Shown here in pieces: positions 26,890 to 45,332 of a stretch of 64,000 nucleotides of DNA. The notes beneath the pieces are model-generated. The model made no database searches, had not been told where the DNA came from, and saw nothing but the letters and a program-made list of their open reading frames with translations. Numbering within the stretch: position 1 is the stretch's first letter; each line of letters begins with the position of its first letter. The DNA is from Arenicellales bacterium (GTDB taxonomy: Bacteria; Pseudomonadota; Gammaproteobacteria; Arenicellales; JAJDZL01), in contig CBDEVD010000006.1 of NCBI GenBank assembly GCA_965243645.1, positions 1,488,838 through 1,552,837 of the forward strand, read 5' to 3'. Position numbers and translations under genes: made by a program.

Positions 26890-27071
26890 TGTAAATTCAA
26901 CTGATAGTATTTGACCTGATTCAGACCAAAATGTGCCATGTCATCAGGTATACAAATTGTTCAGGTAGCACGACACCGGCGTGATTAGATTGTGCAGGAA
27001 GCTGCGAGTTCACTACCAGATCGAATTTACAGCAACAAAATACTGTGTCAAACTGGTGTGAAGCGAAGTAA

Positions 27072-27083
27072 TTGGCGTCCCCA
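27072..27083. repeat. attL-like direct repeat TTGGCGTCCCCA (copy of the tRNA-Glu 3' end)
   Basis: Identical 12-mer occurs at 38634-38645 inside tRNA-Glu. The left copy continues as a degenerate tRNA 3' half (..AAGAGGAATTGATTCGCACC). Confidence 0.65.
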
Positions 27084-27111
27084 AGAGGAATTGATTCGCA
27101 CCTTAGGGAGC

Positions 27112-27297
27112 ATGCCAATTTCGATTACTATAATTGATCCTGAAAGAGTACCAGTGTATCAGAGAATAGCTTCCGAAGTATTGCGTCTAAAAGATCTTGG
27201 ATATAGCCAGAACAAAATCGCTCGAACTATAGGAGTTCACTCTAAAGTTGTTGCCAATGCCATTAAATATCAAATGATAAGAGACGAAAAATCATGA
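27112..27297 (+). CDS. Small helix-turn-helix protein (resolvase-type HTH)
   Basis: 61 aa from ATG 27112. The track ORF from 26992 crosses the att repeat. GYSQNKIARTIGVHSKVVANAIKY looks like an HTH_7-type motif. Its stop overlaps the next start (ATGA). Confidence 0.5.
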   Translation: MPISITIIDPERVPVYQRIASEVLRLKDLGYSQNKIARTIGVHSKVVANAIKYQMIRDEKS

Positions 27298-27863
27298 GTA
27301 AGAACGAGTGGACATTAACCCAGATTTCGAATCTACTGGACCAACCACAGTACAGATTGATTTATCTTTGTGAAAAAGGTGTCATCGTACCTGATGGAAG
27401 TGATGCTAAGGGCCGGGGGAGCAGTCGACGATTCTCAGCACGAAATTTGTTTGAATTTGTCGTGGCCCTTAAATTAAGCGAGTTTCATTTACCGACAAAA
27501 TTAACTACAAACGTTCTTAAAGCGCTTCGATCATTTGACAAGCATCTAGGAGAAAGCTATCCAATGCTGAAACTCCCCTATTCACTCAGAATTCCAAACT
27601 CTCCTGAAGTGAAAATAGTTTTGATCAATGGCTCACGTCTGTACTTTTCGATCGGAACCAAGGGTAGAAAAACCACCTATATCGGTGATTTAGATTTGCT
27701 GAACTTCGACAAATATACGGTTTCAAACAATGCTACAGATAATCTCGCTAAGTCTGCATTTCCGATTGAACGGACGAAAACTCTTCCGATCGAGTCAAAA
27801 ATCGCATCGTTTGAATTAAACCTGTCTCAGATAGCAAAAAATATTTCACTGGAATCGGTTTGA
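27294..27863 (+). CDS. MerR/excisionase-like HTH protein with an uncharacterised C-terminal domain
   Basis: 189 aa; N-terminus WTLTQISNLLDQPQYRLIYLCEKGVIVP...GRGSSRRFSARNLFEFVVALKL follows the MerR-type winged-helix pattern. Translationally coupled to the preceding gene. Confidence 0.55.
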   Translation: MSKNEWTLTQISNLLDQPQYRLIYLCEKGVIVPDGSDAKGRGSSRRFSARNLFEFVVALKLSEFHLPTKLTTNVLKALRSFDKHLGESYPMLKLPYSLRIPNSPEVKIVLINGSRLYFSIGTKGRKTTYIGDLDLLNFDKYTVSNNATDNLAKSAFPIERTKTLPIESKIASFELNLSQIAKNISLESV

Positions 27864-30208
27864 TACAGTTTAAACAGGTTTCGATGAAACTACAAATTAT
27901 TCGGTGTGGAGTTTGCTTTGCTATTCGACGGAATTTATGAGCGGCTTTATGTATTGACGCTTTCTTTCGTAGGACACCTTGCAACACAATCAATTTTGGG
28001 GCAATTTTTCGAACAGAATTCTTTGATTCAAGCAGCCATGAGACCGTATTGAATGAGTTTTCAGGATCAAGCCGGAATTAATCGTATCCGAGACGCATTA
28101 TGGCAAAGATTACCTGGAGCGACCGTTATGATAGGTGCAGGATTCAGCAAGAATGCAGAGTCTGCTCAAGGGTCGATGCCCAGTTGGACTGAACTAGCAC
28201 AGTCAATGTGCGAACAATTGTATCCAGATGAAAAGGACCAGCAACGGACGATTTCATTAGCTGCTAGCAATACTACAAGCGGCGCACTACGCCTTGCGCA
28301 GGAGTATAAAGTTGCGTTCGGGCGTAGAGATCTCCATAGATTCCTAAAGAAACATGTCAATGACCAATTGGTGCAGCCCTGTGATTTTCACAAACGGCTA
28401 CTCCAACTTCCTTGGCGGGATGTGTTTACCACTAATTGGGATACGCTACTGGAAAGGGGCCGTTCAATGGTTATAAATCCCTCCTATAGCGTCGTGAACA
28501 GTATTGACGAAATTCCAATTTCTCCAACTCCAAGAATTGTAAAACTGCATGGGTCCTTAAATGGGCATTTCCCACTCATCTTTACAGAGGAAGACTATCG
28601 AACTTTTCCTCAACGTTTTCCTCCTTTTGTGAATATGGTTCAACAATCAATGATGGAATCTGTTTTCCTTTTACTTGGATTTTCTGGAGATGACCCAAAT
28701 TTCTTGCATTGGTCTGGCTGGGTTCGCGACAACCTTGGTGAATCTGCGCCAAGAATTTTCTTGGCTGGGTGGCTGAATTTGTCTAATCACCGCAGAAGAA
28801 TGCTTGAATCTCGCAACGTCGTTTCTATTGATCTCGCTTGCCATCCAAAATCAAATCAGTGGCCACATTCTCTAAGGCACAAAATAGCGACAGATTGGAT
28901 ATTACGATCATTGGAATATGGTCGCCCGTATGAAGTATCTGAGTGGCCATCTCCGCCTCGTCGAGCAGTGGAGTCCGTGGAATCGCACCTAAAACCTATT
29001 CAGACCGTAATGCTGTGGGAACCGAAAGCAGAACCGCAGTTAATTTCTGAACATGGACAAAACGGCACTGAAAAAGTAGAGAAGGTTAGAAGACTGATAG
29101 AGGTTTGGTCCTACAACAGGAAAAACACATATCCAGGTTGGCTGACAGCACCATCAAGAATAAGAACAAATATGTGGTCTACAAGTGAATATGCTAAGGA
29201 TATCTTGGATGAGTTACCTCGGTTTCTCCCTATGGAAAGACTGCTGTCGATTCGAGAACTAACGTGGCGATGGGGGATTATGTTGAATCCATTATCCGAA
29301 GTTGAAGAATTGTCCACAAGACTTGAGAGGGAATCGTCGAACGTTCTAGCAAGTGTAGACTGTTCTCAGCGAAAGGTAGGAGGAGTCAATGTATCGGGCG
29401 CAGAATGGCCAGAGGTTCTAGAAGCTTGGATTGAGCTCAACTTAGCTTTGATGACGTCTGCACGCCATCGTTTTGACAAAAATAGTTTTGAGAGTCGAAT
29501 AAGTTCCGTTCTACCTTTCAAAGATGAAAGTGACGAAATTAATCACCGGATTATCCATGAACAGTGTATGTGGGCAGTTTTCTCATTAGATTTCGTTTCG
29601 CTAAAAAAACTACTTGATGAGTGGGACTGTGGCTCTACGGACCCTGTTTGGATGATGCGTAAGGCGGCACTACTATTCGAAATTGGGGAAGACGAACAGG
29701 CGGAAGAGGTAAACGCATTTGCACTGGCAAAGATTCAACAGAGTAACAATAATCACCAAGATATTGAATTGTCATCCAGAGAAGGTTGGGCTCTGTTTTG
29801 TGCAGGACAATCGTCTGAAGTGGAGGAGTTTTGGTATGCCTCTACCGAGTGGCAACATCGCTGGGATCGGTTTACGCCAATCCAGTGCAACGCGTCTTTG
29901 GAAATGAAACGCTACGAAGACTCCTTCCAAGTAACTACAACCCCGGAAGGAGGTCGACCATTTGACCTTGGGCATGCCTGGGTAGGTGGTTTTTCCTTTT
30001 CGATGAATGCTTACAACCGGTGGGTAGCCGCGCACAGAGCGGTTCGACTTGTCGAGGTTGCTGGTTTGCCTCCTAGAAGGGGCAATATGACGGTGGCATC
30101 AAAACTTCTCGAACTTGCAGCGCGAAACTTGATTACACACGAACCAGAACTAGCGACACGCTTAGTTCTTCGTGCGGCTGAGTATAAAAGTCAAGGAACA
30201 CTCAATTG

Positions 30209-32160
30209 GAGGCCTTTTCGTTGGCGGCCAATTCGTACGCTCTGCGTAACCAAGTTTGACCTCCAATGGAGTCAATTATCCCGCAATCCACTCCACCTGT
30301 GTGTGAATTGAGCACATTGAGCACCACCAGCCTGAATAATCTTCGCCAGTGTAAGATAACACCGAAATTCATCCGCGTTGAATCCTTCAACCTTGTGAAT
30401 ATCTGGCATTTGGAATGAAACGCCCCGTCCAGGCGCCAGGTCAGGCTGCCAACGATAAGACCAGCGAGCGAACCTCGTCGGGTTTGTTCAGCTGCATGGC
30501 AAAATTCGCGGCCGCCATCATGACGACCATTGAGATCGTTACCTTAAGCCCCAGCGATTTTTTGCCGCGCAGGTAGTGACTGTGCAGCATGAAACTATCG
30601 GCCACTCTGGAGTTGATTCGCTCCATTGCGCTTCTTTGGTGGTACAGCCGGTTCCACTTCTTCGTTGCAGGGGGTAGCACCGGGTGCTGCCGCAGGTTGT
30701 CGGCATTCACTTGGGTGCGTACCACTCTGGCCTTGGCGCCGGCTTTTACCTTACCCAGGTAATGACAGTCCTCCCGACCGGCACACTCAAAATCAGACAC
30801 CGAAGCCGGACACTGCCACTTCAGCGTGCCTCTTTTACTCTCATAACCCTGATAATGCATCAGTCGAATCTCACTGGTCTGGGGACAACGACAATATAGA
30901 TCACCGCACTCAGTGCGCAGCATCGTGTCATACACCTGAGCATCCAACGGCCGGGTCGGTACCTTGAGCTGCTCAGGATCGAGATTGACTTCCTGCCACA
31001 GATTGCGCGTGTCAATCACCGGTAAAATATCTTGTTCGTACAACTTCTTGCGCAGCTTATCGCTGTCAAGACCGCGGTCGGCAACAAAACTCTTGCACCG
31101 CGTACCCAACTGCGAGTCAATGAACTCACTCACCAGTGCATCACACAGCGGATGTTCGCTCTGGTTGGCGGGCACCAGCTTGAAATCAATCGGCAATTCA
31201 TAATTAACATCACCCAAAATGCCCAATGAGTAACCATACCAACGCTTCTCAATGACTTTCTCCTTTCCGGTGGCATCGGTGGTGTACTGGCGGTGGCAGC
31301 CCCAGGCGGCATCCGGGTCGGAGGTGCGCTGCTCACCGGTGTCAGGATCAAGGCAGTCCTTACGGCCCGTGGAGTGAGATTCGATGGATTTCCCGTCAAA
31401 GCCAGTGCGTTCACCGAAGTCAGGGCACACTTCAGCAAAACTGTCGCGCAGTTGTTCGAACTGTTGATACAAATAACCGTGTTGATCTTCAACTTTCATG
31501 ATGGTTGCGCGAAACCGGCTAAAGGCCGCTGCTGAGGGGACCCGGTAGGGTAAAAACTGATTGAGGTGATCACCGCCGTCGGGGTTGGCTTTCAATTCAA
31601 ATCCCAGTGTGGTCATCAAGGTGGGATTGCGCATCAGTTCGCGCCGGAACGATTCAGTGCTGCGATGCTGCAGGACACTCATGGCGATTAGTGCGCGCAG
31701 CATTGCCACGACGGGCCAGTCGCAACGGCCGGTGAATCTTCGTTCCCTTAAAATGGCTTCAACCAGTGGCGAAAGCTCAAGCTGGTCGAAGATTCCCTTG
31801 AGTCGTTGCAGCTCAGAACAATCGAGGTAGTCCTTCCAAAATAAGTCATAATTGATGCTTGGTGCCATGGTTCAGCCTGTTGTATTTTGTGGTTTAACAA
31901 TGGTTGCAATTATACTTCACAGAGACTGGATTGTGGCACTAATAATCAATCAAATCATAATGATAGACGAGAATATCCGGATTATCCCAGGACGCTATAG
32001 AGACGCATTGGAAACACCCAGGCAGTGGGGTAGAAATTCGGGATTTTGGCCTCAAAGTGCCAAAAAAGGCCGATTAGGGGCGATATTTTGGGGTAAGCGT
32101 TTTTTCAAGTCTCGGCTTTCGCGCGAAACATCAATACATTACAACCTTCGAAAAGGCCTC
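30209..32160 (-). mobile_element. Insertion sequence, IS4/IS5-superfamily (IS1182-like?), 1952 bp
   Basis: 12-bp perfect terminal inverted repeats GAGGCCTTTTCG (30209-30220) / CGAAAAGGCCTC (32149-32160). Flanked by direct AATTG (30204-30208 and 32161-32165). Confidence 0.85.
30441..31868 (-). CDS. DDE transposase of the IS
   Basis: 475 aa; N-terminal DUF772-like region (LSPLVEAILRERRFTGRCDWPVVAMLRALIAMSVL) and C-terminal YHQRSAMERINSR (Y-x2-R-x3-E). Confidence 0.88.
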   Translation of the reverse strand: MAPSINYDLFWKDYLDCSELQRLKGIFDQLELSPLVEAILRERRFTGRCDWPVVAMLRALIAMSVLQHRSTESFRRELMRNPTLMTTLGFELKANPDGGDHLNQFLPYRVPSAAAFSRFRATIMKVEDQHGYLYQQFEQLRDSFAEVCPDFGERTGFDGKSIESHSTGRKDCLDPDTGEQRTSDPDAAWGCHRQYTTDATGKEKVIEKRWYGYSLGILGDVNYELPIDFKLVPANQSEHPLCDALVSEFIDSQLGTRCKSFVADRGLDSDKLRKKLYEQDILPVIDTRNLWQEVNLDPEQLKVPTRPLDAQVYDTMLRTECGDLYCRCPQTSEIRLMHYQGYESKRGTLKWQCPASVSDFECAGREDCHYLGKVKAGAKARVVRTQVNADNLRQHPVLPPATKKWNRLYHQRSAMERINSRVADSFMLHSHYLRGKKSLGLKVTISMVVMMAAANFAMQLNKPDEVRSLVLSLAA

Positions 32161-33945
32161 AATTGGACACTTTCTAGGAGCACTGTGGCAACAATGCCAT
32201 ACGATGTTGTTAACAAGTTAGTAGAAACGTGCATTAACGCTTCGGAATACATTATTCCTAAACTCAATAAATCTATCAGGGGTAAGCATTGGAACGGTCG
32301 ACTTTCAGTCGTACTGGAAGTATTGTCGAGACTTATTGTGAGGTTGGATACAGAGCGTTCGAGTGAGATGCTCGGCAGAGTGCTAGGTTGGTACAGCGAC
32401 ATTATTAAGTCAATAGATTTTGCACTTCGAAATCCTGTAAGGCACCTACTATTGAGAACATGGGAAACACTTCCACGAGATTTGCAAGGAAAGCATGTTA
32501 TAGACTTGCTAAGGGCCCCGATACCGAGTGTTGCTGGATTTTCTGAAAGAGCCGATAAATTCCAATATCCTGACCCCATTGATGCGGTAAGAGACTATCG
32601 GAACATTGAAGTTACCCGAACAGAAACGAACGATGGAAGCTGGAAGAACATCGTTAGAACTGTACGTAGCGCACTCAGAAGTGACGGAGATGTACGTCAA
32701 CGCGGTATTAGACGACTTGTAGCGCTTACCAAACTCAAAGTTTTAACAAAAGAAGAATCGATAACACTGGCTCAAGGGCTATGGAAACCTAGTGACAGTG
32801 TTGATTGCCAATTTCCTGAAGAAACAGGCATTCTTGAGGAATGGGTTTTCATGGTTTTACCAGAGCCTCGAGAAGGGGTATCTGAGAACAATTTTCGGGA
32901 AAAATGGTTAAGCAATTCCATCGATATTCGGAGAAACCCTAGTGAAATTCTTTGGCAAGTAGGAAGTGCCATCGAGAATTTGAGTGCGCGAGGAACAGAG
33001 TTTCAGATCTCTTCTGAGGAGATGGAGTTTCTAACTGATGTTGTAGAATCATGGGTTCAGGAACCAATACCAATGGAGTTGAGAGTGATTGGTGCAATGA
33101 GGGAGGCATTTGCAGATAACGAGGTTCAAGAAATTCAAAAAGTAATAGTTGGATTGAGAAATATATTGTGGAAAATCGCCATTTCTGAACACTGTGCAGA
33201 AAAAATATATAACAAATGGATGAAACTGAATTCATTGGAAATTCCGGTATTCGATCTAATTCACGTGTTGATTAAGATACTGCCGAATAAAAAAAGCATA
33301 TTAATACAAACACTTCGTACCGGACTCGCTTCAGATGACCCTAAGACGGCAATAAACGCGATTTCTACATTGCAAAATTGGTTAAAGTCCAGGAGAACTG
33401 AAGATGAAGAAACTGAATTCATTCAACCTCCGATCGATTTAATACAAGAAGTAGGCGTCATTGTGTCTACACGCAGGAGAGCAGCTCTTCTCGAAGGTCT
33501 TTTACTTTCGAATTGGATAGTCGAGAATGGCACCGAGAAAGAAAAAAATACAATCAAACCACTCCTTATACAAGGGCTTAATTACCTGAACGAAGAGTTA
33601 AAGTACGAACGTGGTGAAAGAAAGTATGATAACGTGCCAGAGTTGCGCTGGGCATGCACACGTTTAGCTGTATCGATGAATAACCAAAATTGGGCTGAAC
33701 CGGATGGGATTGTTAGTATGTGGATAGAAAACGTAAACAGTGATCCGTTACCGGAGGTACGGAATATCTTCGACAACTGCGGTCAAATACCGGCAACAGA
33801 GTAGAATCCATCGTTTCAGTGAACGGAAATTTATTGCTCTCAATCCTTTGAAAAGTCTGAAAATCGACTTGGCCAAGCAGGGTATTGAAGAACAATTTTG
33901 GTGAAAATCGTGAAACAGGCATACGCTTAACTTGGGTAGAAGAGA

Positions 33946-35787
33946 ATGCAGAATATAGAAGGTGACGACAAAACCGTCGAAGTGTTGCTGTCAGGCGCGG
34001 CATTTGGCATTGACTATTACCAGCGCGAATATCGTTGGGAGCGTAAGCAACTGCAGGAATTAGTTGACGATTTAGTTGGCCAGTTTCTTCAATCATGGAA
34101 TCCTTCAAAACCGGATGCCTCATTAGAAGAACAATCAAAGTATTTTTTGGGTTCTATAGTTGTCAGTAGAGTTGGTGATCTTCGAAATATCGTGGATGGA
34201 CAGCAAAGAATTACCACGATCACTCTATTGCTGATATACCTGAATCACCTACAAAAATGTCTTGACAAAAAAGTGAAGAAAATTGAGTCGTTAATTTATG
34301 ACGAGGAGCCTGGGGGGTATAAATTTAAACTCGACATACAAGAACGCAATGACTGTATGTTCGCGTTACTAAAAGGAGATCACTATAACCCGGAGAATAG
34401 TTCCGGATCAGTCAAAAATATTATTGAAAGATACGAAGATTTCGATGATATTTTCCCGAAAGATCTGTCAGGTGATGCGTTGCACATATTCATTTGGTGG
34501 GTCATACGCAATGTCAAGTTTATCGAAATCGTTGCCCATGATGATGGTGACGCATACACGATATTCGAGACAATGAATGATCGAGGTCTTTCATTAACTC
34601 CTACAGAAATGCTCAAAGGCTATTTACTCGCAAATATTTCTAATCCAAAGAATCGAATCAAAGCAAACAAAACAATTAAAGAATATCTAAATAAATTCGC
34701 GAGGTACGGAAAAGAAACGGACGCAGACTTTTTCAAAGCATGGTTGCGAGCACAATATTCCAACAAAATCAGAGAAAGAAAGAAAGACGCAAAACCGGAA
34801 GACTTTGATCTGATTGGAACGGAGTATCACCGATGGGTACGTAATAATGCTATTCAAATTGGACTAAATATTAGTGGTGACTATTACGAATTTGTAATGA
34901 AGGATTTTCGCTATTTCGCCTCGCTTTACTTACGCCTATTAGATGCTGCCAAGATACGTATGCCCGGAATCGAGAGCGTTCGTTACAATGCTGATGCCGG
35001 CTTTACTCTGCAACATCATATAACGTTAGCTCCCATAACTTCTAATGATAGTGAAGATATCGCACTAACGAAAGTGGGTATAGTGTCAGATTTTCTAGAT
35101 TGCTTGCTCAATCTCAGATTCTGGAACTATAAATCAAATAGTTATTCATCAATGCAATACACAATATTCACAATAATTCGAAGCATCCGAGGGAAATCGA
35201 TAAGTGAATTGCGTAAAATGCTGCGAGGTCGACTACAGGAAGAAATGAATGAAATAAACTTCAATCAACCAGTAGGTCTCAACCAATTTACATCGCGTGC
35301 AGTCCATCGGCAACTTGCGCGGTTTGTTGATTGGCTTCAGTCTGAATCTGATCGCTCGGAAAATTATGAGAACTTTATAGTTCGTTCTGGCAAAGCCGCT
35401 TACGAAATTGAACATATTTGGGCGGACCACCATGAGAGACATAAAGGAGAATTTGAACAACAAAATGATTTTGATTATCACCGTAATCTCATCGGTGGTT
35501 TACTACTCTTGCCAAAGAAAGTCAACAGTAGCTTAAGCGATATGACCTATGAAGATAAACTACCCCACTATCTCAAAGAAAATATTCTGGCTCAATCTCT
35601 GCATAAAGATTTCTACCGCAATAATCCTGGTTTTCATCAGGTGATTGAAAAATTCAACCTGCCGTTCTCACACCATAAAAAGTTTGCCAAATCGGATCTT
35701 GAAGATAGGTGCCAACTTTACTGCCAACTTGCAAAGTTGATTTGGTCACCTGATCGACTGGTTGCCGCTAAAGAGGATACTGTTTGA
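33946..35787 (+). CDS. GmrSD-like type IV (modification-dependent) restriction enzyme, DUF262 + DUF1524
   Basis: 613 aa; N-terminal IDYYQREYRWE and DGQQRITTITLL (DUF262). C-terminal EIEHIWADHHERH...IGGLLLLPKKVNSSL (DUF1524 His-Me finger). Confidence 0.85.
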   Translation: MQNIEGDDKTVEVLLSGAAFGIDYYQREYRWERKQLQELVDDLVGQFLQSWNPSKPDASLEEQSKYFLGSIVVSRVGDLRNIVDGQQRITTITLLLIYLNHLQKCLDKKVKKIESLIYDEEPGGYKFKLDIQERNDCMFALLKGDHYNPENSSGSVKNIIERYEDFDDIFPKDLSGDALHIFIWWVIRNVKFIEIVAHDDGDAYTIFETMNDRGLSLTPTEMLKGYLLANISNPKNRIKANKTIKEYLNKFARYGKETDADFFKAWLRAQYSNKIRERKKDAKPEDFDLIGTEYHRWVRNNAIQIGLNISGDYYEFVMKDFRYFASLYLRLLDAAKIRMPGIESVRYNADAGFTLQHHITLAPITSNDSEDIALTKVGIVSDFLDCLLNLRFWNYKSNSYSSMQYTIFTIIRSIRGKSISELRKMLRGRLQEEMNEINFNQPVGLNQFTSRAVHRQLARFVDWLQSESDRSENYENFIVRSGKAAYEIEHIWADHHERHKGEFEQQNDFDYHRNLIGGLLLLPKKVNSSLSDMTYEDKLPHYLKENILAQSLHKDFYRNNPGFHQVIEKFNLPFSHHKKFAKSDLEDRCQLYCQLAKLIWSPDRLVAAKEDTV

Positions 35788-35803
35788 AGTTCTGGATCAA
35801 TTC

Positions 35804-36538
35804 ATGTCATTACGAGATATTACACAACAGGCTGTATTGGACGCTATTAGCGAATTCAATACCCTTACACGCGAAGTGTTCCTAACAACCTACGAATTCG
35901 GCAAGGCAAAAAAGTATTGGCTAATTTACGACGGACAACGATACGACTCAAAAGCTATTGTAGGAGTTGCACATAAATATGCAACCAATCTAGGGCCATT
36001 AAAGAATTCTGAATTTAGTGGTGGTAAGAAAACAGTCAAACCAAAATTATGCAGTTTGGGGTTTACTGTTATAGATAGTAAAAATGAGGTTAATCAATTA
36101 ATTTTGCCATCTGAATCTTCACCCCCGCCCTTTGACCCGTCAGACGAAACAGATGCCCGAGGACGAATATCTCGAATGATCGCTAGCCGACAAGGTCAAG
36201 GAGCCTTTCGTCACAAAATACTAAACGCCTATAACCGTCGTTGCGCGATTTCTGATTGTGCCGTCGTCGATGTCCTTGAGGCGGCTCATATTGTTCCCTA
36301 TCGAGGTCCAAAGACCAATGTGGCTTCAAATGGACTTCTACTACGTGCGGATATACACACGTTATTCGACTTGGGAATGGTTGCCATCGACAGTAGTCTT
36401 AGAGTTCATGTGCACAACAATCTCAGTGAGACTGAATATTGGGCATTCAATAACAAGGAATTGCGAGTTCCGTCGGCTACAAAACAAAAACCCAATATGG
36501 AAGCATTGAAGTTACATTTAGATCGTTCGCTGTTGTGA
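35804..36538 (+). CDS. HNH endonuclease (HNH_2 type) with an N-terminal McrA/ScoMcrA-like small DNA-binding head domain
   Basis: C-terminal RQGQGAFRHKILNAYNRRCAIS...EAAHIVPY...NGLLLRADIHTLFDLGMVAID. N-terminal YWLIYDGQRYDSKAIVGVAH..FSGG. ATG at 35804 preferred over TTG at 35762. Confidence 0.82.
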   Translation: MSLRDITQQAVLDAISEFNTLTREVFLTTYEFGKAKKYWLIYDGQRYDSKAIVGVAHKYATNLGPLKNSEFSGGKKTVKPKLCSLGFTVIDSKNEVNQLILPSESSPPPFDPSDETDARGRISRMIASRQGQGAFRHKILNAYNRRCAISDCAVVDVLEAAHIVPYRGPKTNVASNGLLLRADIHTLFDLGMVAIDSSLRVHVHNNLSETEYWAFNNKELRVPSATKQKPNMEALKLHLDRSLL

Positions 36539-36981: not shown

Positions 36982-38691
36982 ATGAAAGCTGCAGTATACG
37001 CCCGTTACAGTTCGGAAAACCAGCGTCCGCAAAGTATTGAAGATCAAATTTCAACCTGCCGGAAATTCGCGATTGAAAATGATTTTTTTGTAGATGAAAA
37101 TTACATCTATTCGGATGAAGCAAAGTCAGGGGCGAGTAATGATCGAGATGGTCTCAATTCTCTAAGTGCAGCAGCACGCAACCACCATTTTGAAGTTGTA
37201 CTCGTAGATGATTTATCGCGTTTGGCACGAAATAATTACTTGATGCTTACGGTCCTCGCAGACCTTAGTTTTGAAGGAATTCGGGTAATATCAGTCGCAG
37301 ACGGATTGGATAGTAATGACCAAGAATCAACTCTTGGAATCCAAATTAGAGGGATTTTTAACGAACTTCAATTGCAGGATCTCAAGAAGAAAACGATGAG
37401 AGGTATGATTGGACAAAAACAGCGCGGATTCTCGGCGGGTGAACGCACGTTTGGATATACGTCTATTCCGGTAGGTGATATCCATTTAGATTCAAAAGGT
37501 AAGGAAAGACCTGAAGGATACAGAAAGGTAATTGATCCTCGCGAATCCGCGATTGTGTTGAGAGTATTTGAACATTATCGAAACGGTTGCTCAATCAACC
37601 AAATAGTAAAAATATTCAACCAGGAGAGTGTACCAACTCCGAAAAACAATACTAAAGCATGGTCAGCTGGAACTGTAAGTCGTATTATCAACAACGAAAA
37701 ATATATCGGGAAGTGGGTTTGGAACAAAACCGGAACTCGCCGCGATCCGAGAACTGGACGACAAAAGAAATTCAACAAACCAGAATCGGAGTGGATCGTC
37801 AAATTCGACGACAGTTTGCGTATTGTTTCACAGGATATCTGGGACGAAGTTCAAGCTCGAAGGAATGAACGGAAAAAGTCATGGCCTGGAGGAAAAGGCA
37901 AACGTGGTTTTGAGAGCAAGAATGGAAGTGTGGAAAAACACTTTCCAACAGATCTTTTTTCTGGTGCTATGACCTGCAAGAAATGTGGATCTACGATAGG
38001 AAAAGTGAGTGGAAAAGGTGGTGGATATTTCGGCTGTCTTGGAACAAAGATCGGCAAATGCGACAACAAGGTCAACGTGCGACGAAGCGTCCTGGAAAAC
38101 TTAATCCTTGACGATGTAAAACAACTGCTATCTGAACCCGAAAATATTCAAAGTGTTCTCAACAGTGTCGCAAACAAAATGAAAGAGCTATACTCGGAAT
38201 TTCCAAACAAAATTACCCGGAGAGAAAAAGAGTTGGCATCTGAAGAAAGAAAGCTCAACAATTTCATTAATTTTATCGGTGAAGGAAAGGGTACCCGGTC
38301 TCTCAACCACGCACTGATTGAAAGCGAAAACAAAATAGACAAGCTGAAAAATGAAATTCATGTGCTCCAGACTTCTCATTCAAAGGCGGTCCAAGCACCA
38401 CCGGTCAGATGGATTCAGAATCGACTCAACCATATTCAACACTTGCTTGAACGGAACATTTCTGAATCTGCAATGGTGTTAAGAAAATTACTCGGACCTA
38501 TTGAGCTCGAACCGGTATTTCCGGAGACCGGTAGACCGTATTACTTAGCACATACTACTTTTGAGACAATTTCCATAGTGGTAGATAAAAAATTCGCGCC
38601 TAACCCATTGGACAAAGGTGCGAATCAATATAGTTGGCGTCCCCACGGGGATTCGAACCCCGGTCGCCAGCGTGAAAGGCTGGTGTCCTAG
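36982..38691 (+). CDS. Large serine recombinase (resolvase domain + recombinase domain + Zn ribbon + coiled coil)
   Basis: 569 aa; AAVYARYSSENQ (catalytic Ser), VLVDDLSRLARN, GYRKVIDPRESAIV..., CKKCGS...GCLG Zn-ribbon cysteines, coiled-coil NKIDKLKNEIHVLQ. The last ~19 codons are antisense tRNA-Glu sequence (WRPHGDSNPG). Confidence 0.9.
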   Translation: MKAAVYARYSSENQRPQSIEDQISTCRKFAIENDFFVDENYIYSDEAKSGASNDRDGLNSLSAAARNHHFEVVLVDDLSRLARNNYLMLTVLADLSFEGIRVISVADGLDSNDQESTLGIQIRGIFNELQLQDLKKKTMRGMIGQKQRGFSAGERTFGYTSIPVGDIHLDSKGKERPEGYRKVIDPRESAIVLRVFEHYRNGCSINQIVKIFNQESVPTPKNNTKAWSAGTVSRIINNEKYIGKWVWNKTGTRRDPRTGRQKKFNKPESEWIVKFDDSLRIVSQDIWDEVQARRNERKKSWPGGKGKRGFESKNGSVEKHFPTDLFSGAMTCKKCGSTIGKVSGKGGGYFGCLGTKIGKCDNKVNVRRSVLENLILDDVKQLLSEPENIQSVLNSVANKMKELYSEFPNKITRREKELASEERKLNNFINFIGEGKGTRSLNHALIESENKIDKLKNEIHVLQTSHSKAVQAPPVRWIQNRLNHIQHLLERNISESAMVLRKLLGPIELEPVFPETGRPYYLAHTTFETISIVVDKKFAPNPLDKGANQYSWRPHGDSNPGRQRERLVS

Positions 38692-38712
38692 ACCTGACTA
38701 GACGATGGGGAC
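38635..38712 (-). tRNA. tRNA-Glu (anticodon UUC)
   Basis: Minus strand GTCCCCATCGTCTAGTCAGGTCTAGGACACCAGCCTTTCACGCTGGCGACCGGGGTTCGAATCCCCGTGGGGACGCCA folds as a cloverleaf: acceptor GTCCCCA/TGGGGAC, anticodon stem CCAGC/GCTGG with loop CTTTCAC, T-arm CGGGG-TTCGAAT-CCCCG, encoded CCA. Confidence 0.9.
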
Positions 38713-39142: not shown

Positions 39143-40369
39143 CTAATTTTCAGCACTTTCGAACGCGCTTGCATAGGCGTCTATGTCGACGGCACTCATA
39201 CCAAGTTGTCGCGCAACTTCGCGCCATTTGGCTATGACCTGGGACACTTCGATAATGATCTGATCTGCCTGATTCGCTTTGAGAGCGAAATACGGCGCTG
39301 CTCTGCGAGCTAAATCAATAGAGGCTTGCGGTCCTTCTTCTGAAATCCATGTTGTCAATTCGCGCACCGACTCCTCAAGGGGCACGGGGTTGAGATCATA
39401 AGCGGGTGATAACTGCCACTTACCGTCTCCTGCATAGAGAAATCCGTGGTTTCTCAGGTGGTCGTCGACATTGCCAATCATTACCCCAAAAATCATTCGC
39501 CTCCAGAGGTCGCATAAATCTTGAATCGGAGATATTGAATGCATGCGTATACTCTCAGCAATATCGGTGTAGGTTGCTATATCTCCATCATTGATTCCCA
39601 ATAGGCTCATTGCTGACAGAAACGGAATGCGGCGGTGCTCTGCCCGGTCGAAACGTCGTATAAGTGCGACCGAGCGCCCGGCAACCACCTCTATGCGTCC
39701 GCACGCGGTATTGATACCGGCTTGCTTGGCCAAAGTGAGAGCCAGAATTTCACCGTGGGTGATGCTACGATCATCATCTAATTTTGGAAACTTCGCAATT
39801 GCAAGCTGTCCGTCTTTATCAACAACAGCAGATTTTGGTCTTGCACCGCCGAGAGGAGATCCCTGGTTTAGCAGTAGATGCAAATCGTCTGTGGTTTCCG
39901 TGTTATTCAATACGGCATCAACAGCATTAAGTAACGCTGACATTTGAGTGAGAGGAGGCGTTTGATATTCGCCAATATTGAAATTAAGATGAGATTCACC
40001 TGCCCGCCTGTATCGAAGCGCACCAATTCGAGTGGCATCTTTCATCGCTAGCAGATAGTCAATTTCTGAAAGCGAACGCTTTTCACCGGATCGACGAAAG
40101 GCACGATGGATTAACTGCCGACCCCAACGATCAGGTGCGCTGTCTCGCAAGGGACCCGGCAAAGCTGATTTCTCAGAATTCGAGTAAACTGGATGCGGAC
40201 TAAGCGGAAGATTGGCTGGATCAAGTGCGAATGGCTTGCGGTAGGTTAGCCATTCATCGGCATATTCAAAAATGGAACTTTGGCTACGAAATTTATCCGC
40301 ATAACGGCATAGACCGACAAGCCGCGTCTCACCAAGACTATCAACGTAGACTTCTAGAGTTTCAGTCAT
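39143..40369 (-). CDS. hipA: HipA-family serine/threonine kinase toxin
   Basis: 408 aa; N-terminal coupling domain (LEVYVDSLGETRLVGL...FEYADEWL...DPANLPL). Catalytic IGNVDDHLRNHGFL and SPAYDLNP motifs are intact. Confidence 0.85.
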   Translation of the reverse strand: MTETLEVYVDSLGETRLVGLCRYADKFRSQSSIFEYADEWLTYRKPFALDPANLPLSPHPVYSNSEKSALPGPLRDSAPDRWGRQLIHRAFRRSGEKRSLSEIDYLLAMKDATRIGALRYRRAGESHLNFNIGEYQTPPLTQMSALLNAVDAVLNNTETTDDLHLLLNQGSPLGGARPKSAVVDKDGQLAIAKFPKLDDDRSITHGEILALTLAKQAGINTACGRIEVVAGRSVALIRRFDRAEHRRIPFLSAMSLLGINDGDIATYTDIAESIRMHSISPIQDLCDLWRRMIFGVMIGNVDDHLRNHGFLYAGDGKWQLSPAYDLNPVPLEESVRELTTWISEEGPQASIDLARRAAPYFALKANQADQIIIEVSQVIAKWREVARQLGMSAVDIDAYASAFESAEN

Positions 40370-40647
40370 GGCTTACATTTCCCGCGGCGATGCGTGACAA
40401 TCCGTTTTGGCAGTGGAGACTTTTCAATGTCGAGACCAAAGGCATCATTGCTGTGGTCGAAAATCGCACCTGACATAAATCAGGACAAAGGTGCGCATCA
40501 ATGTCAGTGGTGGACCCGAGTAAAATTGATTTGAATTCTCGCGAGTGTATCAACTACGTGAGATTAATCGAACCAATAAGGCTAACATCTCCTCGACAGT
40601 TATACTTCTTCACGATTCATAATGTTAATTTAATATACAATCAAAAT

Positions 40648-40665
40648 ATACATATTTATATGTAT
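40648..40665. promoter_or_regulatory. Perfect palindrome ATACATAT-TT-ATATGTAT upstream of phd (candidate operator)
   Basis: 8-bp arms with a 2-bp spacer, 31 bp upstream of the TTG start that has an AGGAG RBS. Phd/YefM antitoxins autoregulate through palindromic operators. Confidence 0.4.
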
Positions 40666-40695
40666 TTTGACCTACTCAATGACAGGAGCTTGAAA

Positions 40696-40944
40696 TTGGA
40701 AAGAATCTTGGCAAATAAAACCGTGTCCCTTACCGAACTTAGAGACCCCGCAAAAGTACTAGCAGGAGCAGGCGAATCACCGGTTGCGGTTTTAAACCGC
40801 AGTAACGTAGTCGGATATTTTGTACCAAAATCAGCGGTAGATAACGTAGATTTCAGGTACGCCGACACCGTTGATGTGCAAAAAACTGTTGATGAGTCAA
40901 TTGAACAAAACAAAGAACTACTTGACTACCTAAAAGACAAATAA
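40696..40944 (+). CDS. phd: Phd/YefM-family antitoxin
   Basis: 82 aa from TTG 40696 (AGGAG 7 nt upstream). An in-frame ATG at 40660 lacks an RBS. ..KTVSLTELRDPAKVL....PVAVLNRSNVVGYFVP.. pattern. Confidence 0.75.
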   Translation: MERILANKTVSLTELRDPAKVLAGAGESPVAVLNRSNVVGYFVPKSAVDNVDFRYADTVDVQKTVDESIEQNKELLDYLKDK

Positions 40945-40945
40945 A

Positions 40946-41317
40946 TTGGAAATCTTACGCAGTGTGGGTGTGCTGAACATTCACGCAAAGGTCATTAGCC
41001 CACAGGAGCTGCAAGGCCTAGCAGGCAATAAATCTTTGGAGGCAATCATCCATCGTATTGAGAATCGCATCCTCTACGGGATGATTGGAGACGTGTACGA
41101 TCTTGCCGCAACTTATGCTGTTGTAATTGCGGTTGACCACGTGTTCAATGATGCAAATAATAGAACAGCGGTTATCGCAATGGATACGGCTTTGCGTAGA
41201 AACGGAATCAGTTTAAGATTTGATGCTGAAAAAATGGGTCAAGTCATCATCAAGGTTGCACAGGGAATAGTTGACGAAACAGAATTGGCACGTCACCTTC
41301 GTTCTTTGTCGCAATAG
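40946..41317 (+). CDS. doc: Doc (death-on-curing) Fic-fold toxin
   Basis: 123 aa; Doc-type Fic motif HVFNDANNRTA (HxFx[DN][AG]NxR). Starts 1 nt after the phd stop. Confidence 0.85.
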   Translation: MEILRSVGVLNIHAKVISPQELQGLAGNKSLEAIIHRIENRILYGMIGDVYDLAATYAVVIAVDHVFNDANNRTAVIAMDTALRRNGISLRFDAEKMGQVIIKVAQGIVDETELARHLRSLSQ

Positions 41318-41432
41318 CAAATGCAAAGAAGAAAATTGTGATAATCGTAACTATTTACGACAATCAAGTTTAATTCGGAATAAAGTCATTAGCCGTTTAA
41401 CGATTTTCGATCATAACTGGAGGATTGTCCTA

Positions 41433-43418
41433 TCATTCGAGAGGGAAAATTTCCCGATATTCTTTATCGAGTTTGAAATCGAGACTACCAAATGCTTCCT
41501 GAATCTGGTCCCATGTAGCTGCTCGGTTATAGAAACTTTTTACAGAAGTACCGATACTGTCGTGAAACTTTCTGTACTCTTCAAAAATCAACTCATCAAC
41601 AATCGTTTTTAGCCACTTTCCAACTATGTATCGTTCTAAAAAATCTTTGTTCCCAAAGTAAGCAGAATTCTCAATCAAACCGTGAGTATACCCACATTTA
41701 TCCAATATTAAACGAAGTACAGCTATTGTTAAATAGTTCGCCATAGAGAAGAAGTGAAAGCTCTGTAGTTCTTTCAATATTTTTTCTTTGTCTTCAAGAA
41801 ATGATTCCTTTGTTTCAAATCTTCTCTTCAGAATTTTGCCAAATAAATAACTTCGGGTGACAATTTCTTTCATATTACTGAGTGTCTTGACATCACTGTC
41901 TTCAGAGTATTGACTGACTTTTAGAAGAATTTGACCGGTTGTTTTTGCATTACCGTAAATGCTGGTTTGGTTTGCTACAAGCTCAAACAAATTGAATGCC
42001 AAAATCATCTCTTTGACATAATCTTCACAAATTTTCTGAGGATCAAAAATTAACTTATAGCTCTTGCTATAGTCAGATCGAAAAATGTTTGCTTTCTGAA
42101 CTTTTCCTAGAGTCGGATCTTCCTTAAATGCCATCCAGATACTGGCCAATTTATCAATTGAAATTTTGTCATTCCAATTATCAAAGTCAGTTTTCCTCAT
42201 ACCTAATATGGAGTGTTTTTCTTTGTGTTCATCTAAATATTTTCTTTCTCCCCTTTTGATTTCATACAAGTATCCGAATTTCGCAAAGTATTTCTGCAAT
42301 TCTATTTGTTCTTTAGCATTAGCATAAAAGTCAGTCTCGTAAATTGAATTTTGACTGTTGTTGTATCGGATGACATTGCGTTCAAAATTTGAGGCTTCTC
42401 CTACCCCTTTACCATCATCTTGAATGACTCGAAACAAAACTTGAACCTCACGAAATTTCTCGATCGCAGAATTTTCGGCATCATCACTTGGATACTTTCT
42501 TGCTAGTTGGTTTTTCTTTTGCTGAAAGGCAGTAAAAATCGAATTAACAGTCTGAGCACCATTAATTATTTGTGGGTACTCAATTCGAAGTTTCTTTGTG
42601 TTTTCCTTGTACTTGAAACCCTTTGATGTGATAGTAAGCCCATTGTTATAGAAATAAAACATCTCTGGAAAATCATTCGCTGTATCACAGATCCCTGTGT
42701 TTATTTTGTTCTTTCCCAATCCAAATCTTAAGTTCTTATCAAACAACTTATAGCGAAACTCTTTTCTAATTCGGATAATTTCATCACCAGAAATTATTGA
42801 TACAAAAGTTCTGTGACGATTACTTAGATCTGGCGCTATATGCTTATGATGTAAAGCTATTTCAATGGATCTGGGTTCGGTCTTTTCTAATTTGGAAGTG
42901 TATTCTTGATATTCTTCCTTGATATCTTCCCACCCTCGATAATTAATATCTTTCTGGTACAGATTTCGTACTTCCTCTGAACAGTGACCAAGATGAAACA
43001 ACCACAGTTGGCTTTGATATCCCTCTTTGTCTGAGAATCTCAGAAATTCTTCGGCAATATCCTTTATCCGTATGTTCGTATGGTTATTGATATATTCACA
43101 GTCCCTTAATTTTTTGGGCACATCGTTGAGGTAGGAAAACCATTCCTTTTTTGCGGAACGTAGCTGCTTAATGGACCGGATAGACTTACACTGAATAATG
43201 TTGATTTGACTGTTCTCATGATCAACGAAAAATCCATCAATTGAATCATCATTAGTGTTGAGGCCGTCAAGCGCGCCATTAATCTCTTCGTGAGACAAGG
43301 AGTCCCAAAACACTTTTAGACAAAAATATGGGAAACTGTCTGTGATCTCGTTAGCATAGTCTTGTGCTTCTTTCTTGATGAATTTAAAGAAAGATTTGTT
43401 ATCTAGGTGAGAATCCAT
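41433..43418 (-). CDS. AIPR-family abortive-infection protein
   Basis: 661 aa, very AT-rich. N-terminal nuclease-like DSIDGFFVDHENSQINIIQCKS; central FYFYNNGLTITSKGF and QIINGAQT, which I associate with the AIPR domain. Confidence 0.72.
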   Translation of the reverse strand: MDSHLDNKSFFKFIKKEAQDYANEITDSFPYFCLKVFWDSLSHEEINGALDGLNTNDDSIDGFFVDHENSQINIIQCKSIRSIKQLRSAKKEWFSYLNDVPKKLRDCEYINNHTNIRIKDIAEEFLRFSDKEGYQSQLWLFHLGHCSEEVRNLYQKDINYRGWEDIKEEYQEYTSKLEKTEPRSIEIALHHKHIAPDLSNRHRTFVSIISGDEIIRIRKEFRYKLFDKNLRFGLGKNKINTGICDTANDFPEMFYFYNNGLTITSKGFKYKENTKKLRIEYPQIINGAQTVNSIFTAFQQKKNQLARKYPSDDAENSAIEKFREVQVLFRVIQDDGKGVGEASNFERNVIRYNNSQNSIYETDFYANAKEQIELQKYFAKFGYLYEIKRGERKYLDEHKEKHSILGMRKTDFDNWNDKISIDKLASIWMAFKEDPTLGKVQKANIFRSDYSKSYKLIFDPQKICEDYVKEMILAFNLFELVANQTSIYGNAKTTGQILLKVSQYSEDSDVKTLSNMKEIVTRSYLFGKILKRRFETKESFLEDKEKILKELQSFHFFSMANYLTIAVLRLILDKCGYTHGLIENSAYFGNKDFLERYIVGKWLKTIVDELIFEEYRKFHDSIGTSVKSFYNRAATWDQIQEAFGSLDFKLDKEYREIFPLE

Positions 43419-45135: not shown

Positions 45136-45332
45136 TGTAGGTAACGGTTGAATATCCCAAAAGTAACGGTTGAAATTCCCCACTATTTAGTGGGCAACAT
45201 AGTGGGGACTATCTCGCCAACCGAACTATGTAGCGTAGTTTATTAACATCCTAATTTAATTGTAAAAAATCAAATCGATGACGACATAGTATAGGCTTCA
45301 ATCACAGCCCGTTTATGGGCAGGAGCTATATT

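What the first reader, a model, noticed from the sequence alone, without database searches (positions are those of the whole stretch)
28053..33804. A ~1264-aa SIR2-domain (DSR-like) defence gene split by a recent IS insertion, reconstructable to the base
ORF 28053-30311 opens with a complete SIR2_2-type NADase core (GAGFS, TTNWD, KLHGS, LLGFSGDDPNF). Its last 34 codons are IS sequence. The IS has 12-bp perfect terminal inverted repeats, GAGGCCTTTTCG (30209-30220) and CGAAAAGGCCTC (32149-32160), flanked by direct AATTG (30204-30208 and 32161-32165). Removing 30209-32165 fuses ..RAAEYKSQGTLNW to TLSRSTVATMPYDVVNKLVE.. in the frame of ORF 31852-33804. The result is 3795 nt, or 1264 codons plus stop. 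About 970 residues after the SIR2 domain are helical-looking, show no Walker A motif, and match no domain I can name. That layout (SIR2 effector plus large sensor) is the architecture of DSR1/DSR2, but I cannot tell whether this C-terminal region belongs to either family or is new. The intact target duplication and undamaged flanks argue that the inactivation is recent.
Basis: partly seen in the sequence, partly recalled or inferred. Interest (0 to 1): 0.8.

Follow-up and report, generated by a model that had tools for sequence, protein, structure and literature searches.

The report
DSR2 anti-phage gene broken by IS
This is a known kind of single-gene anti-phage NAD-destroying defence protein (DSR2 family) that a multi-copy jumping gene has cut in two, which is an ordinary event in a bacterial defence island.

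Summary
Removing 30209-32165 (a 1952-bp IS plus one copy of its AATTG duplication) fuses ORFs 28053-30311 and 31852-33804 into one 3795-nt, 1264-codon gene with no internal stop. The junction aligns without gaps to 13 full-length homologues.

The open question, whether the C-terminal ~970 residues are new, is answered: they are not.
- The repaired protein matches the PADLOC Dsr2 model (E 1e-175) and NCBIfam NF041819 Dsr2 (588 bits) end to end.
- Its family profile aligns over 1137 columns with a protein NCBI names Dsr2 (WP_017895821.1; hhalign probability 100%, E 1.6e-91).
- More than 4000 homologues exist in bacteria and archaea.

It is a diverged member: it scores below NCBIfam's 1400-bit cut-off, and the nearest intact relative is 62% identical. 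It resembles the structurally solved Bacillus DSR2 by sequence only in the SIR2 domain, where the catalytic N128/D130/H166 are conserved. Structure models show the same layout: SIR2, then a helical middle region, then a HEAT-like solenoid.

The IS is an IS5/IS1182-like DDE element with at least 12 near-identical transposase variants in the source assembly.

Verdict: an IS-inactivated member of a known defence family. "Recent" is plausible but cannot be dated. Low interest.

The parts
28053..30208 (+). 5' part of the DSR2-family gene (codons 1-718 plus 2 nt of codon 719). It covers the SIR2 NADase domain (about aa 1-290) and the helical middle region.
   Evidence: AF2 model of aa 1-718: pLDDT 79.9. 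Its top 43 PDB matches are all B. subtilis DSR2.
28422..28823 (+). Pfam SIR2_2 core (aa 124-257). Catalytic N128 (28434-28436), D130 (28440-28442) and H166 (28548-28550).
   Evidence: E 1.7e-17. The alignment to Bacillus DSR2 places N128/D130/H166 on N133/D135/H171. H166 is invariant and N128/D130 are at least 90% conserved in 48 sequences.
30204..30208 (.). Left copy of the target-site duplication AATTG.
30209..32160 (-). Insertion sequence, 1952 bp, IS5/IS1182-like DDE element. 12-bp perfect terminal inverted repeats at 30209-30220 and 32149-32160.
   Evidence: GC is 0.517 against 0.439 for the host gene.
30441..31868 (-). Transposase, 475 aa (Pfam DUF772 + DDE_Tnp_1). At least 12 near-identical full-length variants exist in the source assembly.
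   Evidence: NCBIfam IS1182 60.9 bits, below the 270 cut-off; weaker IS5 hits.
32161..32165 (.). Right copy of the target-site duplication AATTG.
32166..33804 (+). 3' part of the DSR2-family gene (last nt of codon 719, codons 720-1264, stop). This is the all-helical HEAT/ARM-like solenoid, the presumed sensor domain.
   Evidence: AF2 model: pLDDT 88.2, pTM 0.86. Foldseek returns only generic alpha-solenoids. The region is covered by the Dsr2 HMMs.

Best explanation
The locus is a single-gene DSR2-family (defence-associated sirtuin 2) anti-phage gene of 1264 codons. It sits in a low-GC defence and mobile-element island. A 1952-bp IS5/IS1182-like insertion sequence has inserted after codon 718 and disrupted it.

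Shown:
- The gene can be repaired exactly.
- The repaired protein is homologous over its whole length to the Dsr2 family models and to thousands of stand-alone proteins of about 1250 aa.
- The SIR2 catalytic residues are intact.
- The IS is multi-copy in the source genome.

Inferred from the B. subtilis DSR2 work:
- The intact protein would form an auto-inhibited oligomer through its SIR2 and middle domains.
- Its C-terminal alpha-solenoid would bind a newly made phage structural protein (the tail tube in Bacillus; unknown here).
- That binding would open the SIR2 site, and NAD+ would be hydrolysed to ADP-ribose and nicotinamide, aborting the infection.

The insertion removes the C-terminal 545 residues, which make up the sensor. 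The remaining product of 718 + 34 aa should be unable to sense phage, so the system is most likely dead. Losing an abortive-infection NADase is either neutral or mildly favourable. It is the kind of event expected in a genome where this IS is proliferating.
For: Repair and junction:
- Exact in-frame repair.
- Gap-free junction against 13 homologues.

Family membership:
- PADLOC Dsr2: E 1e-175, residues 9-1253 in one stretch.
- NCBIfam NF041819 Dsr2: 588 bits, residues 9-1251.
- hhalign of the 48-sequence family profile against the NCBI-named Dsr2 WP_017895821.1: probability 100%, E 1.6e-91, 1137 columns.
- tblastn to the same gene covers residues 9-964 in one piece.
- More than 4065 homologues, most of those listed being 1210-1290 aa at 97-100% coverage.

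Structure and catalysis:
- N128/D130/H166 align with Bacillus N133/D135/H171.
- The N-half model's top 43 PDB hits are all Bacillus DSR2, with the SIR2 domain at TM 0.73-0.78.
- The C-half is a confident alpha-solenoid, the same fold class as the Bacillus HEAT-like CTD (PMC11850899).

Stand-alone system:
- No neighbour family recurs in more than 6 of 35 loci.
- The window's own neighbours are absent from the homologue loci.

The IS:
- 13-member transposase cluster, 12 members from the source assembly's two contigs, differing from the window copy at 3-7 residues.

Context and published mechanism:
- The island also holds GmrSD, HNH, a serine recombinase, tRNA-Glu, HipA, Doc, AIPR/AbiU and a tyrosine integrase.
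- The CTD is the sensor and apo DSR2 is inactive (PMC10981675, PMC11263360, PMC11087589; Garb et al., bioRxiv 10.1101/2021.12.14.472415).
Against: - The NCBIfam score (588 bits) is far below the equivalog cut-off (1400), so NCBI would name this protein only 'SIR2 family protein'.
- Neither this protein, nor its family profile, nor the NCBI-named Dsr2 shows sequence similarity to the solved Bacillus DSR2 beyond the SIR2 domain.
- The C-half model does not pick out the Bacillus DSR2 CTD among the top 50 solenoid hits. Transfer of the tail-tube trigger is therefore unsupported, and only the general sensor-effector logic can be inferred.
- No NADase or defence assay exists for this clade in the papers I could read.
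- Loss of function of the truncated product is inferred, not shown.
- No read-level evidence is available to exclude a mis-assembly.
Confidence: 0.88

Rival explanations
1. The C-terminal ~970 residues are a new sensor, making this a new SIR2-effector defence family distinct from DSR1 and DSR2.
For: - Pfam sees nothing beyond the SIR2_2 domain.
- PDB sequence and profile searches match only the SIR2 part.
- The C-half gives only generic solenoid fold hits.
Against: - The PADLOC and NCBIfam Dsr2 models align end to end.
- hhalign to an NCBI-named Dsr2 gives probability 100% over 1137 columns.
- The family is large and already captured by existing defence-finder models.
Confidence: 0.04
2. The split gene still works. 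Either the SIR2-middle fragment (752 aa) and an IS-promoted C-terminal fragment (ORF 31852-33804) act together, or the truncated SIR2 protein alone is a differently regulated NADase.
For: - Both fragments remain open reading frames.
- A TTG-initiated ORF runs from inside the IS into the 3' part.
- One promoter-like site lies at 31933-31961 (+).
Against: - Promoter-like sites occur at chance frequency: 11 found against 11.0 expected.
- In Bacillus DSR2 the signal passes from the CTD through the MID to SIR2 within one chain, and apo protein is inactive (PMC10981675, PMC11263360).
- Every intact homologue listed is a single chain of about 1250 aa.
Confidence: 0.05
3. The interruption is an assembly artefact: a multi-copy IS collapsed or mis-joined in a metagenome-assembled genome. 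The real genome would then carry an intact gene.
For: - The IS exists in at least 12 near-identical variants on two large contigs. Their substitutions form a mosaic, which could reflect assembly or consensus mixing.
- The source looks like a long-read MAG or genome with contigs of 2.16 and 1.13 Mb.
Against: - A mis-join would not create a precise 5-bp target duplication flanking perfect terminal inverted repeats.
- Nor would it leave a host gene that closes in frame to the base.
Confidence: 0.03

Closest known systems
DSR2 as defined by family models (Gao et al. 2020 family; PADLOC PDLC02184; NCBIfam NF041819; e.g. Clostridium tyrobutyricum plasmid WP_017895821.1, 1246 aa)
   Same: - Same length class (about 1215-1250 aa).
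- Same N-terminal SIR2 domain.
- Collinear homology over essentially the whole protein.
- Stand-alone gene in variable defence-island contexts.
   Different: - Only about 25-27% identical to the named reference.
- 588 bits against the 1400-bit equivalog cut-off.
- Here the gene is interrupted by an IS.
Bacillus subtilis 29R DSR2 (WP_029317421, 1005 aa; PDB 8K98, 8WKN, 8WY8, 8Y13 and others)
   Same: - SIR2 NADase domain with the same catalytic N/D/H.
- It is the best structural match for residues 1-718.
- Same overall plan of SIR2, helical middle region and HEAT-like alpha-solenoid (PMC11850899).
   Different: - About 260 residues shorter.
- No detectable sequence similarity beyond the SIR2 domain, even with a family profile.
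- The C-half model does not specifically retrieve its CTD.
- Its trigger (SPR tail tube) and inhibitor (DSAD1) cannot be assumed here. Activator-binding regions are reported not to be conserved between species (PMC11087589).
ThsA (Thoeris) and other SIR2 defence effectors (SIR2-HerA, Avs5, DSR1)
   Same: SIR2 NADase domain of the same subfamily. ThsA chains are the top sequence hits in the PDB for the SIR2 part, and PADLOC ThsA scores E 1.8e-18.
   Different: - No SLOG/STALD domain, no HerA partner and no STAND NTPase; there is no Walker A motif.
- No PADLOC Dsr1 hit at E <= 0.01.
- The Dsr1 sensor is a TPR domain shared with Avs7 that senses major capsid protein (PMC12803255).
IS5 / IS1182-type insertion sequences (DDE_Tnp_1 + DUF772 transposases)
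   Same: - Single transposase of 475 aa with DUF772 + DDE_Tnp_1.
- Short terminal inverted repeats and a short target duplication.
- Multi-copy in the host.
   Different: - Scores are far below the NCBIfam family cut-offs (IS1182 60.9 against 270; IS5 under 27 against 110-140), so the family-level name is unresolved.
- No DNA match in PLSDB plasmids.
- Only about 80 relatives were found in 5.8 billion proteins.

Membership tests
DSR2 (defence-associated sirtuin 2) | N-terminal SIR2 domain with catalytic Asn and His (Bacillus N133/H171) | tested here: met
   - Pfam SIR2_2, E 1.7e-17.
- N128/D130/H166 align to N133/D135/H171.
- These residues are conserved across 48 family members.
DSR2 (defence-associated sirtuin 2) | Full-length match to the family HMM used by defence finders (PADLOC Dsr2) | tested here: met
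   PDLC02184: E 1e-175, 585 bits, residues 9-1253 against model positions 13-1218 of 1222 in one stretch.
DSR2 (defence-associated sirtuin 2) | Score above the NCBIfam NF041819 equivalog cut-off (1400 bits) | tested here: not met
   588.1 bits, although the alignment is collinear over residues 9-1251 against 8-1212 of 1215. This is a diverged member, not an equivalog of the seed sequences. hhalign to a protein that does pass the cut-off gives probability 100% and E 1.6e-91.
DSR2 (defence-associated sirtuin 2) | Single-gene system with no conserved partner gene | tested here: met
   - No neighbour family occurs in more than 6 of 35 homologue loci, and the most frequent one has no fixed side or strand.
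- The window's flanking ORFs are absent from the homologue loci.
DSR2 (defence-associated sirtuin 2) | SIR2 + middle helical domain + HEAT-like alpha-solenoid C-terminal sensor, as in the solved Bacillus protein | tested here: inconclusive
   - The fold class agrees.
- The N half retrieves Bacillus DSR2 first, with alignments of 800-940 columns, but TMq is only 0.32-0.48.
- The C half gives only generic solenoid hits at TM 0.2-0.34, and Bacillus DSR2 is not in the top 50.
DSR2 (defence-associated sirtuin 2) | Phage-triggered NAD+ depletion and abortive infection; activation by a phage structural protein | not testable with these tools
   Needs expression of the repaired gene, phage challenge and NAD+ measurement.
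DSR1 | Match to the Dsr1 model / TPR sensor shared with Avs7 | tested here: not met
   - No PADLOC Dsr1 hit at E <= 0.01.
- Only marginal TPR-like hits (HOP/STI1, E 0.006-0.2) at profile positions 520-640.
IS1182 / IS5 family insertion sequence | Transposase above the family cut-off, terminal inverted repeats, target-site duplication | tested here: inconclusive
   - The IRs and duplication are present.
- The Pfam domains DUF772 + DDE_Tnp_1 pass their cut-offs.
- The NCBIfam IS1182 and IS5 scores are far below their cut-offs.
- ISfinder was not available.

The most novel reading that the evidence does not exclude
The ~1250-aa 'long' DSR2 clade to which this gene belongs may carry a sensor region that is not the same module as the tail-tube-binding CTD of Bacillus DSR2 and that recognises a different phage protein. 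'DSR2' as used in databases and 'DSR2' as understood mechanistically would then be two different sensors on a shared SIR2 effector. The evidence here does not exclude this:
- There is no sequence similarity beyond the SIR2 domain.
- The C half gives no specific fold match.
Probability: 0.3. Interest if true: 0.35.

Novelty: new member of a known kind. Interest (0 to 1): 0.15.

Why it matters
It matters little beyond annotation. The locus should be labelled as an IS-disrupted DSR2-family pseudogene, not as two 'SIR2 family' or hypothetical proteins.

Two modest points of wider use:
1. It is a clean, base-exact example of an active multi-copy IS knocking out an abortive-infection NADase inside a defence island. 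This is relevant to how defence repertoires turn over.
2. The database 'Dsr2' family (about 1250 aa, thousands of members from Proteobacteria to Methanosarcina) shares no detectable sequence similarity outside the SIR2 domain with the only DSR2 whose trigger and structure are known. The tail-tube model should therefore not be transferred to this clade without a test.

Tried and rejected
Searches for the uninterrupted allele or the source genome:
- An exact 40-mer across the empty site found nothing in the JGI metagenome contigs.
- The GTDB genome scan returned 73 homologue loci but not the source genome. The nearest locus (L070) is itself an internally deleted remnant and is not syntenic.
- The nearest intact protein is only 62% identical.
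- Exact-protein look-ups of the 752-aa ORF and of the transposase found no contig on record.

Searches on the IS:
- IS DNA against PLSDB plasmids: no match.
- Transposase tblastn against plasmids: only 25-29% partial hits.
- Transposase scan of the metagenome contigs: one 46% partial relative.

Links to the solved Bacillus DSR2:
- The family profile against PDB sequences did not extend the Bacillus DSR2 match beyond the SIR2 domain.
- The NCBI-named Dsr2 did not hit it at all at E <= 0.01.
- Foldseek of the C half gave only generic solenoids.
- I could not obtain the Bacillus DSR2 sequence for a direct profile-profile comparison.

Other:
- Gao et al. 2020 (PMC7985843) is not held, so the origin and length of the original tested DSR2 come from the family models, not from the paper.
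- Promoter and terminator scans were at chance level.
- I considered the two small upstream ORFs (26992-27297, 27294-27863) as possible partners and rejected them, because they are absent next to all homologues.
- I tested for relaxed constraint. The window protein keeps 94.7% (N part) and 91.4% (C part) of highly conserved columns, against family means of 96.7% and 95.9%, and all mismatches are conservative. This is within the family range, so it is not evidence of decay. Nor is it a date.
- I did not determine the organism. The only hints are a 99%-identical transposase labelled 'Gemmatimonadota MAG' and gammaproteobacterial-looking neighbours.
Full report
**1. The observation**

- ORF 28053-30311 (+, 752 aa) and ORF 31852-33804 (+, 650 aa, TTG start) flank a minus-strand ORF 30441-31868 of 475 aa.
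- GAGGCCTTTTCG at 30209-30220 and its reverse complement at 32149-32160 are perfect 12-bp inverted repeats. They are the only two matches in the window, against 0.27 expected with one mismatch allowed.
- AATTG flanks both ends. The identical direct stretch is really 10 bp (CTCAATTGGA, 30201-10 and 32158-67) because it overlaps the IR tips. The duplication could therefore be read as 5 or 6 bp, but every reading removes the same 1957 bp.
- Deleting 30209-32165 gives a 3795-nt ORF of 1264 codons plus a stop, with no internal stop and the junction ...QGTLNW|TLSRSTVATMP....
- The quoted SIR2 motifs are at residues 28, 126, 164 and 207. There is no Walker A motif.

**2. Is the repair biologically right?**

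A search of 5.8 billion proteins returned more than 4065 homologues at E <= 1e-10. Most of the 120 listed are 1210-1290 aa and cover 97-100% of the repaired protein. Thirteen of them, at 43-62% identity, align across the junction without a gap. The nearest, P0001, reads GTLNWTLSRSTVATMP. The exact 752-aa truncated ORF is itself in the collection, from an NCBI contig of 2,160,945 bp (P0002). The interrupted state is therefore what the public assembly holds.

**3. What family is it?**

- Pfam sees only SIR2_2 (residues 124-257, E 1.7e-17).
- The PADLOC Dsr2 model matches in one stretch over residues 9-1253, against model positions 13-1218 of 1222 (E 1e-175, 585 bits). No Dsr1 hit appears.
- NCBIfam NF041819 'anti-phage defense-associated sirtuin Dsr2' matches residues 9-1251 against 8-1212 of 1215, with 588 bits. 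That is well below its 1400-bit equivalog cut-off.
- To bridge that gap I looked for a protein that NCBI itself names Dsr2. Clostridium tyrobutyricum plasmids carry one (WP_017895821.1, 1246 aa). tblastn aligns my residues 9-964 to it in one piece (26.5% identity, E 7e-76).
- hhalign of my 48-sequence family alignment against that protein gives probability 100%, E 1.6e-91 and 1137 aligned columns, 12-1234 against 16-1211.

The C-terminal ~970 residues are therefore not new. They are the Dsr2 family's own C-terminal region. The protein is a diverged member of that family.

**4. Relation to the mechanistically characterised DSR2**

All structures and trigger data are for the 1005-aa B. subtilis 29R protein (Garb et al., bioRxiv 10.1101/2021.12.14.472415; PMC10981675; PMC11087589; PMC11263360; PMC11850899).
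- By sequence, my protein matches it only over the SIR2 domain: residues 41-288, E 7e-7.
- A family profile does not extend the match: 41-229, E 6.5e-12.
- The NCBI-named Dsr2 does not hit it at all at E <= 0.01.
- Within the SIR2 domain, N128, D130 and H166 align with the Bacillus catalytic N133, D135 and H171. They are invariant or at least 90% conserved in the family.

I modelled the two window-encoded halves with a 48-sequence alignment.
- Residues 1-718 (pLDDT 79.9, pTM 0.71) form a Rossmann-type SIR2 domain followed by about 370 residues of helices. The top 43 Foldseek hits in the PDB are all Bacillus DSR2 chains (E down to 8e-11), ahead of ThsA. SIR2-only chains superpose at TM 0.73-0.78 and rmsd 4.0-4.7 Å. 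Full chains align over 800-940 columns, but with TMq of only 0.32-0.48.
- Residues 720-1264 (pLDDT 88.2, pTM 0.86) form an all-helical repeat. It retrieves only generic HEAT/ARM solenoids such as PP2A-A, importins, CAND1 and SF3B1, at TM 0.2-0.34. Bacillus DSR2 is not in the top 50.

The Bacillus CTD is itself described as HEAT-like and distantly similar to a PP2A subunit (PMC11850899). The architecture therefore agrees, but specific homology of the sensor regions is not demonstrated.

**5. Stand-alone system and context**

Across 35 loci with near-full-length homologues, no neighbouring ORF family recurs in more than 6 loci, and the most frequent one shows no fixed side or strand. The window's own flanking ORFs are absent next to the homologues. 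That fits a single-gene system.

In the window the gene lies in a low-GC block (0.37-0.46 against about 0.50) from about 26 to 44 kb. The block contains:
- a GmrSD-type protein at 33946-35787 and an HNH protein at 35762-36538;
- a large serine recombinase at 36982-38691 abutting tRNA-Glu;
- HipA, a Doc/Fic toxin and an AIPR/AbiU protein, followed by a tyrosine integrase.

This is a typical defence and mobile-element island.

**6. The insertion sequence**

- The 475-aa protein has DUF772 + DDE_Tnp_1, with a sub-threshold DDE_Tnp_1_6 hit.
- NCBIfam places it nearest IS1182 (60.9 bits against a 270 cut-off), then IS5 models. It is an IS5/IS1182-like DDE element whose family name I cannot fix without ISfinder.
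- It has no DNA match in PLSDB, and only about 80 protein relatives were found.
- Its 90% cluster holds 13 full-length 475-aa sequences. Twelve come from NCBI contigs of 2,160,945 and 1,128,516 bp. The other members differ from the window copy at 3-7 residues, in a mosaic over about 10 sites.

The element is therefore multi-copy and presumably active in the source genome. That makes a hit in DSR2 unremarkable.

**7. Consequence and timing**

The insertion lies after codon 718 and removes 545 residues (43%), the solenoid that is the sensor in Bacillus DSR2. Apo Bacillus DSR2 is inactive and needs ligand binding in the C-terminal cavity (PMC10981675, PMC11263360). I therefore infer loss of function, but this is not shown.

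Both halves remain open. They keep 94.7% (N part) and 91.4% (C part) of highly conserved family columns, against family means of 96.7% and 95.9%, and all mismatches are conservative. Together with the intact duplication, this is compatible with a recent event, but it gives no date. I found no empty-site allele.

**8. Verdict**

This is an IS-inactivated, diverged member of the known DSR2 family. The possibility of a new sensor family is excluded at the family level.

One caveat is worth keeping. The long (~1250 aa) database Dsr2 clade has not been tied by sequence or specific fold to the Bacillus sensor domain, so its trigger remains unknown.

Novelty: new member of a known kind. Interest: low.

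Noticed in passing
L070:8001-9072 (MAG Arenicellales bacterium, CBDBBP010000004.1): The closest genome-collection relative is itself a decayed copy. Residues 3-273 (63% identity) run directly into residues 1167-1251 (37%), an internal deletion of about 890 codons. It is not syntenic with the window outside the gene. It is a second, independent example of DSR2 loss in this sub-clade.
   Followed up: partly
window 30441-31868 (-) and proteins P0122, P0203-P0214: The 12 transposase variants from the source assembly differ at only about 10 sites, and the substitutions occur in many different combinations (a mosaic). This suggests recombination or gene conversion between IS copies, or consensus mixing in the assembly. 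One 99%-identical copy is labelled 'MAG: transposase [Gemmatimonadota bacterium]' (MDE2723345.1).
   Followed up: partly
window 36982-38691 (+) and 38635-38712 (-): A 569-aa large serine recombinase ORF (Resolvase + Recombinase + Zn_ribbon_recom) overlaps, at its 3' end, a tRNA-Glu(TTC) gene on the opposite strand by 57 nt. This looks like the integration module and attachment region of the island carrying DSR2, GmrSD and HNH.
   Followed up: no
window 33946-35787 (+) and 35762-36538 (+): A GmrSD-type protein (DUF262/DUF1524; best PADLOC hit HEC-06, E 8e-38) overlaps a downstream HNH_2 protein by 26 nt. The HNH protein weakly resembles phosphorothioate-DNA-dependent restriction enzymes. The pair may be a two-gene type IV restriction unit immediately downstream of DSR2.
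   Followed up: partly
window 39143-43418: A second block of defence and toxin genes lies beyond the tRNA: HipA kinase (39143-40369, -), a Doc/Fic toxin (40946-41317, +) with a small upstream ORF, and an AIPR/AbiU-like protein (41433-43418, -). The GC minimum here is 0.366. A tyrosine integrase follows at 45315-46562.
   Followed up: partly
window 26992-27297 (+) and 27294-27863 (+): Two overlapping small ORFs lie just upstream of DSR2 with no Pfam, PADLOC or NCBIfam family. By eye, the first ends in a helix-turn-helix-like stretch reminiscent of a resolvase C-terminus, and the second starts with a MerR/excisionase-like HTH. Neither is found next to DSR2 homologues.
   Followed up: partly
L074:3953-7690 (C. 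tyrobutyricum plasmid NZ_CP047468.1) versus PDB DSR2 entries: The NCBI-named reference Dsr2 (1246 aa) has no phmmer hit to the solved B. subtilis DSR2 chains at E <= 0.01, although it hits ThsA. The database family 'Dsr2' and the structurally characterised 'DSR2' are therefore very distant. This nomenclature point could mislead mechanism transfer.
   Followed up: partly
alignment A1, profile positions ~520-640 (window protein aa ~515-630): The family profile gives marginal TPR hits in the middle region (HOP/STI1 TPR2A, E 0.006-0.2), and one homologue (P0118) has a precomputed TPR_12 Pfam hit. The middle domain may be TPR-like rather than a novel helical bundle.
   Followed up: no
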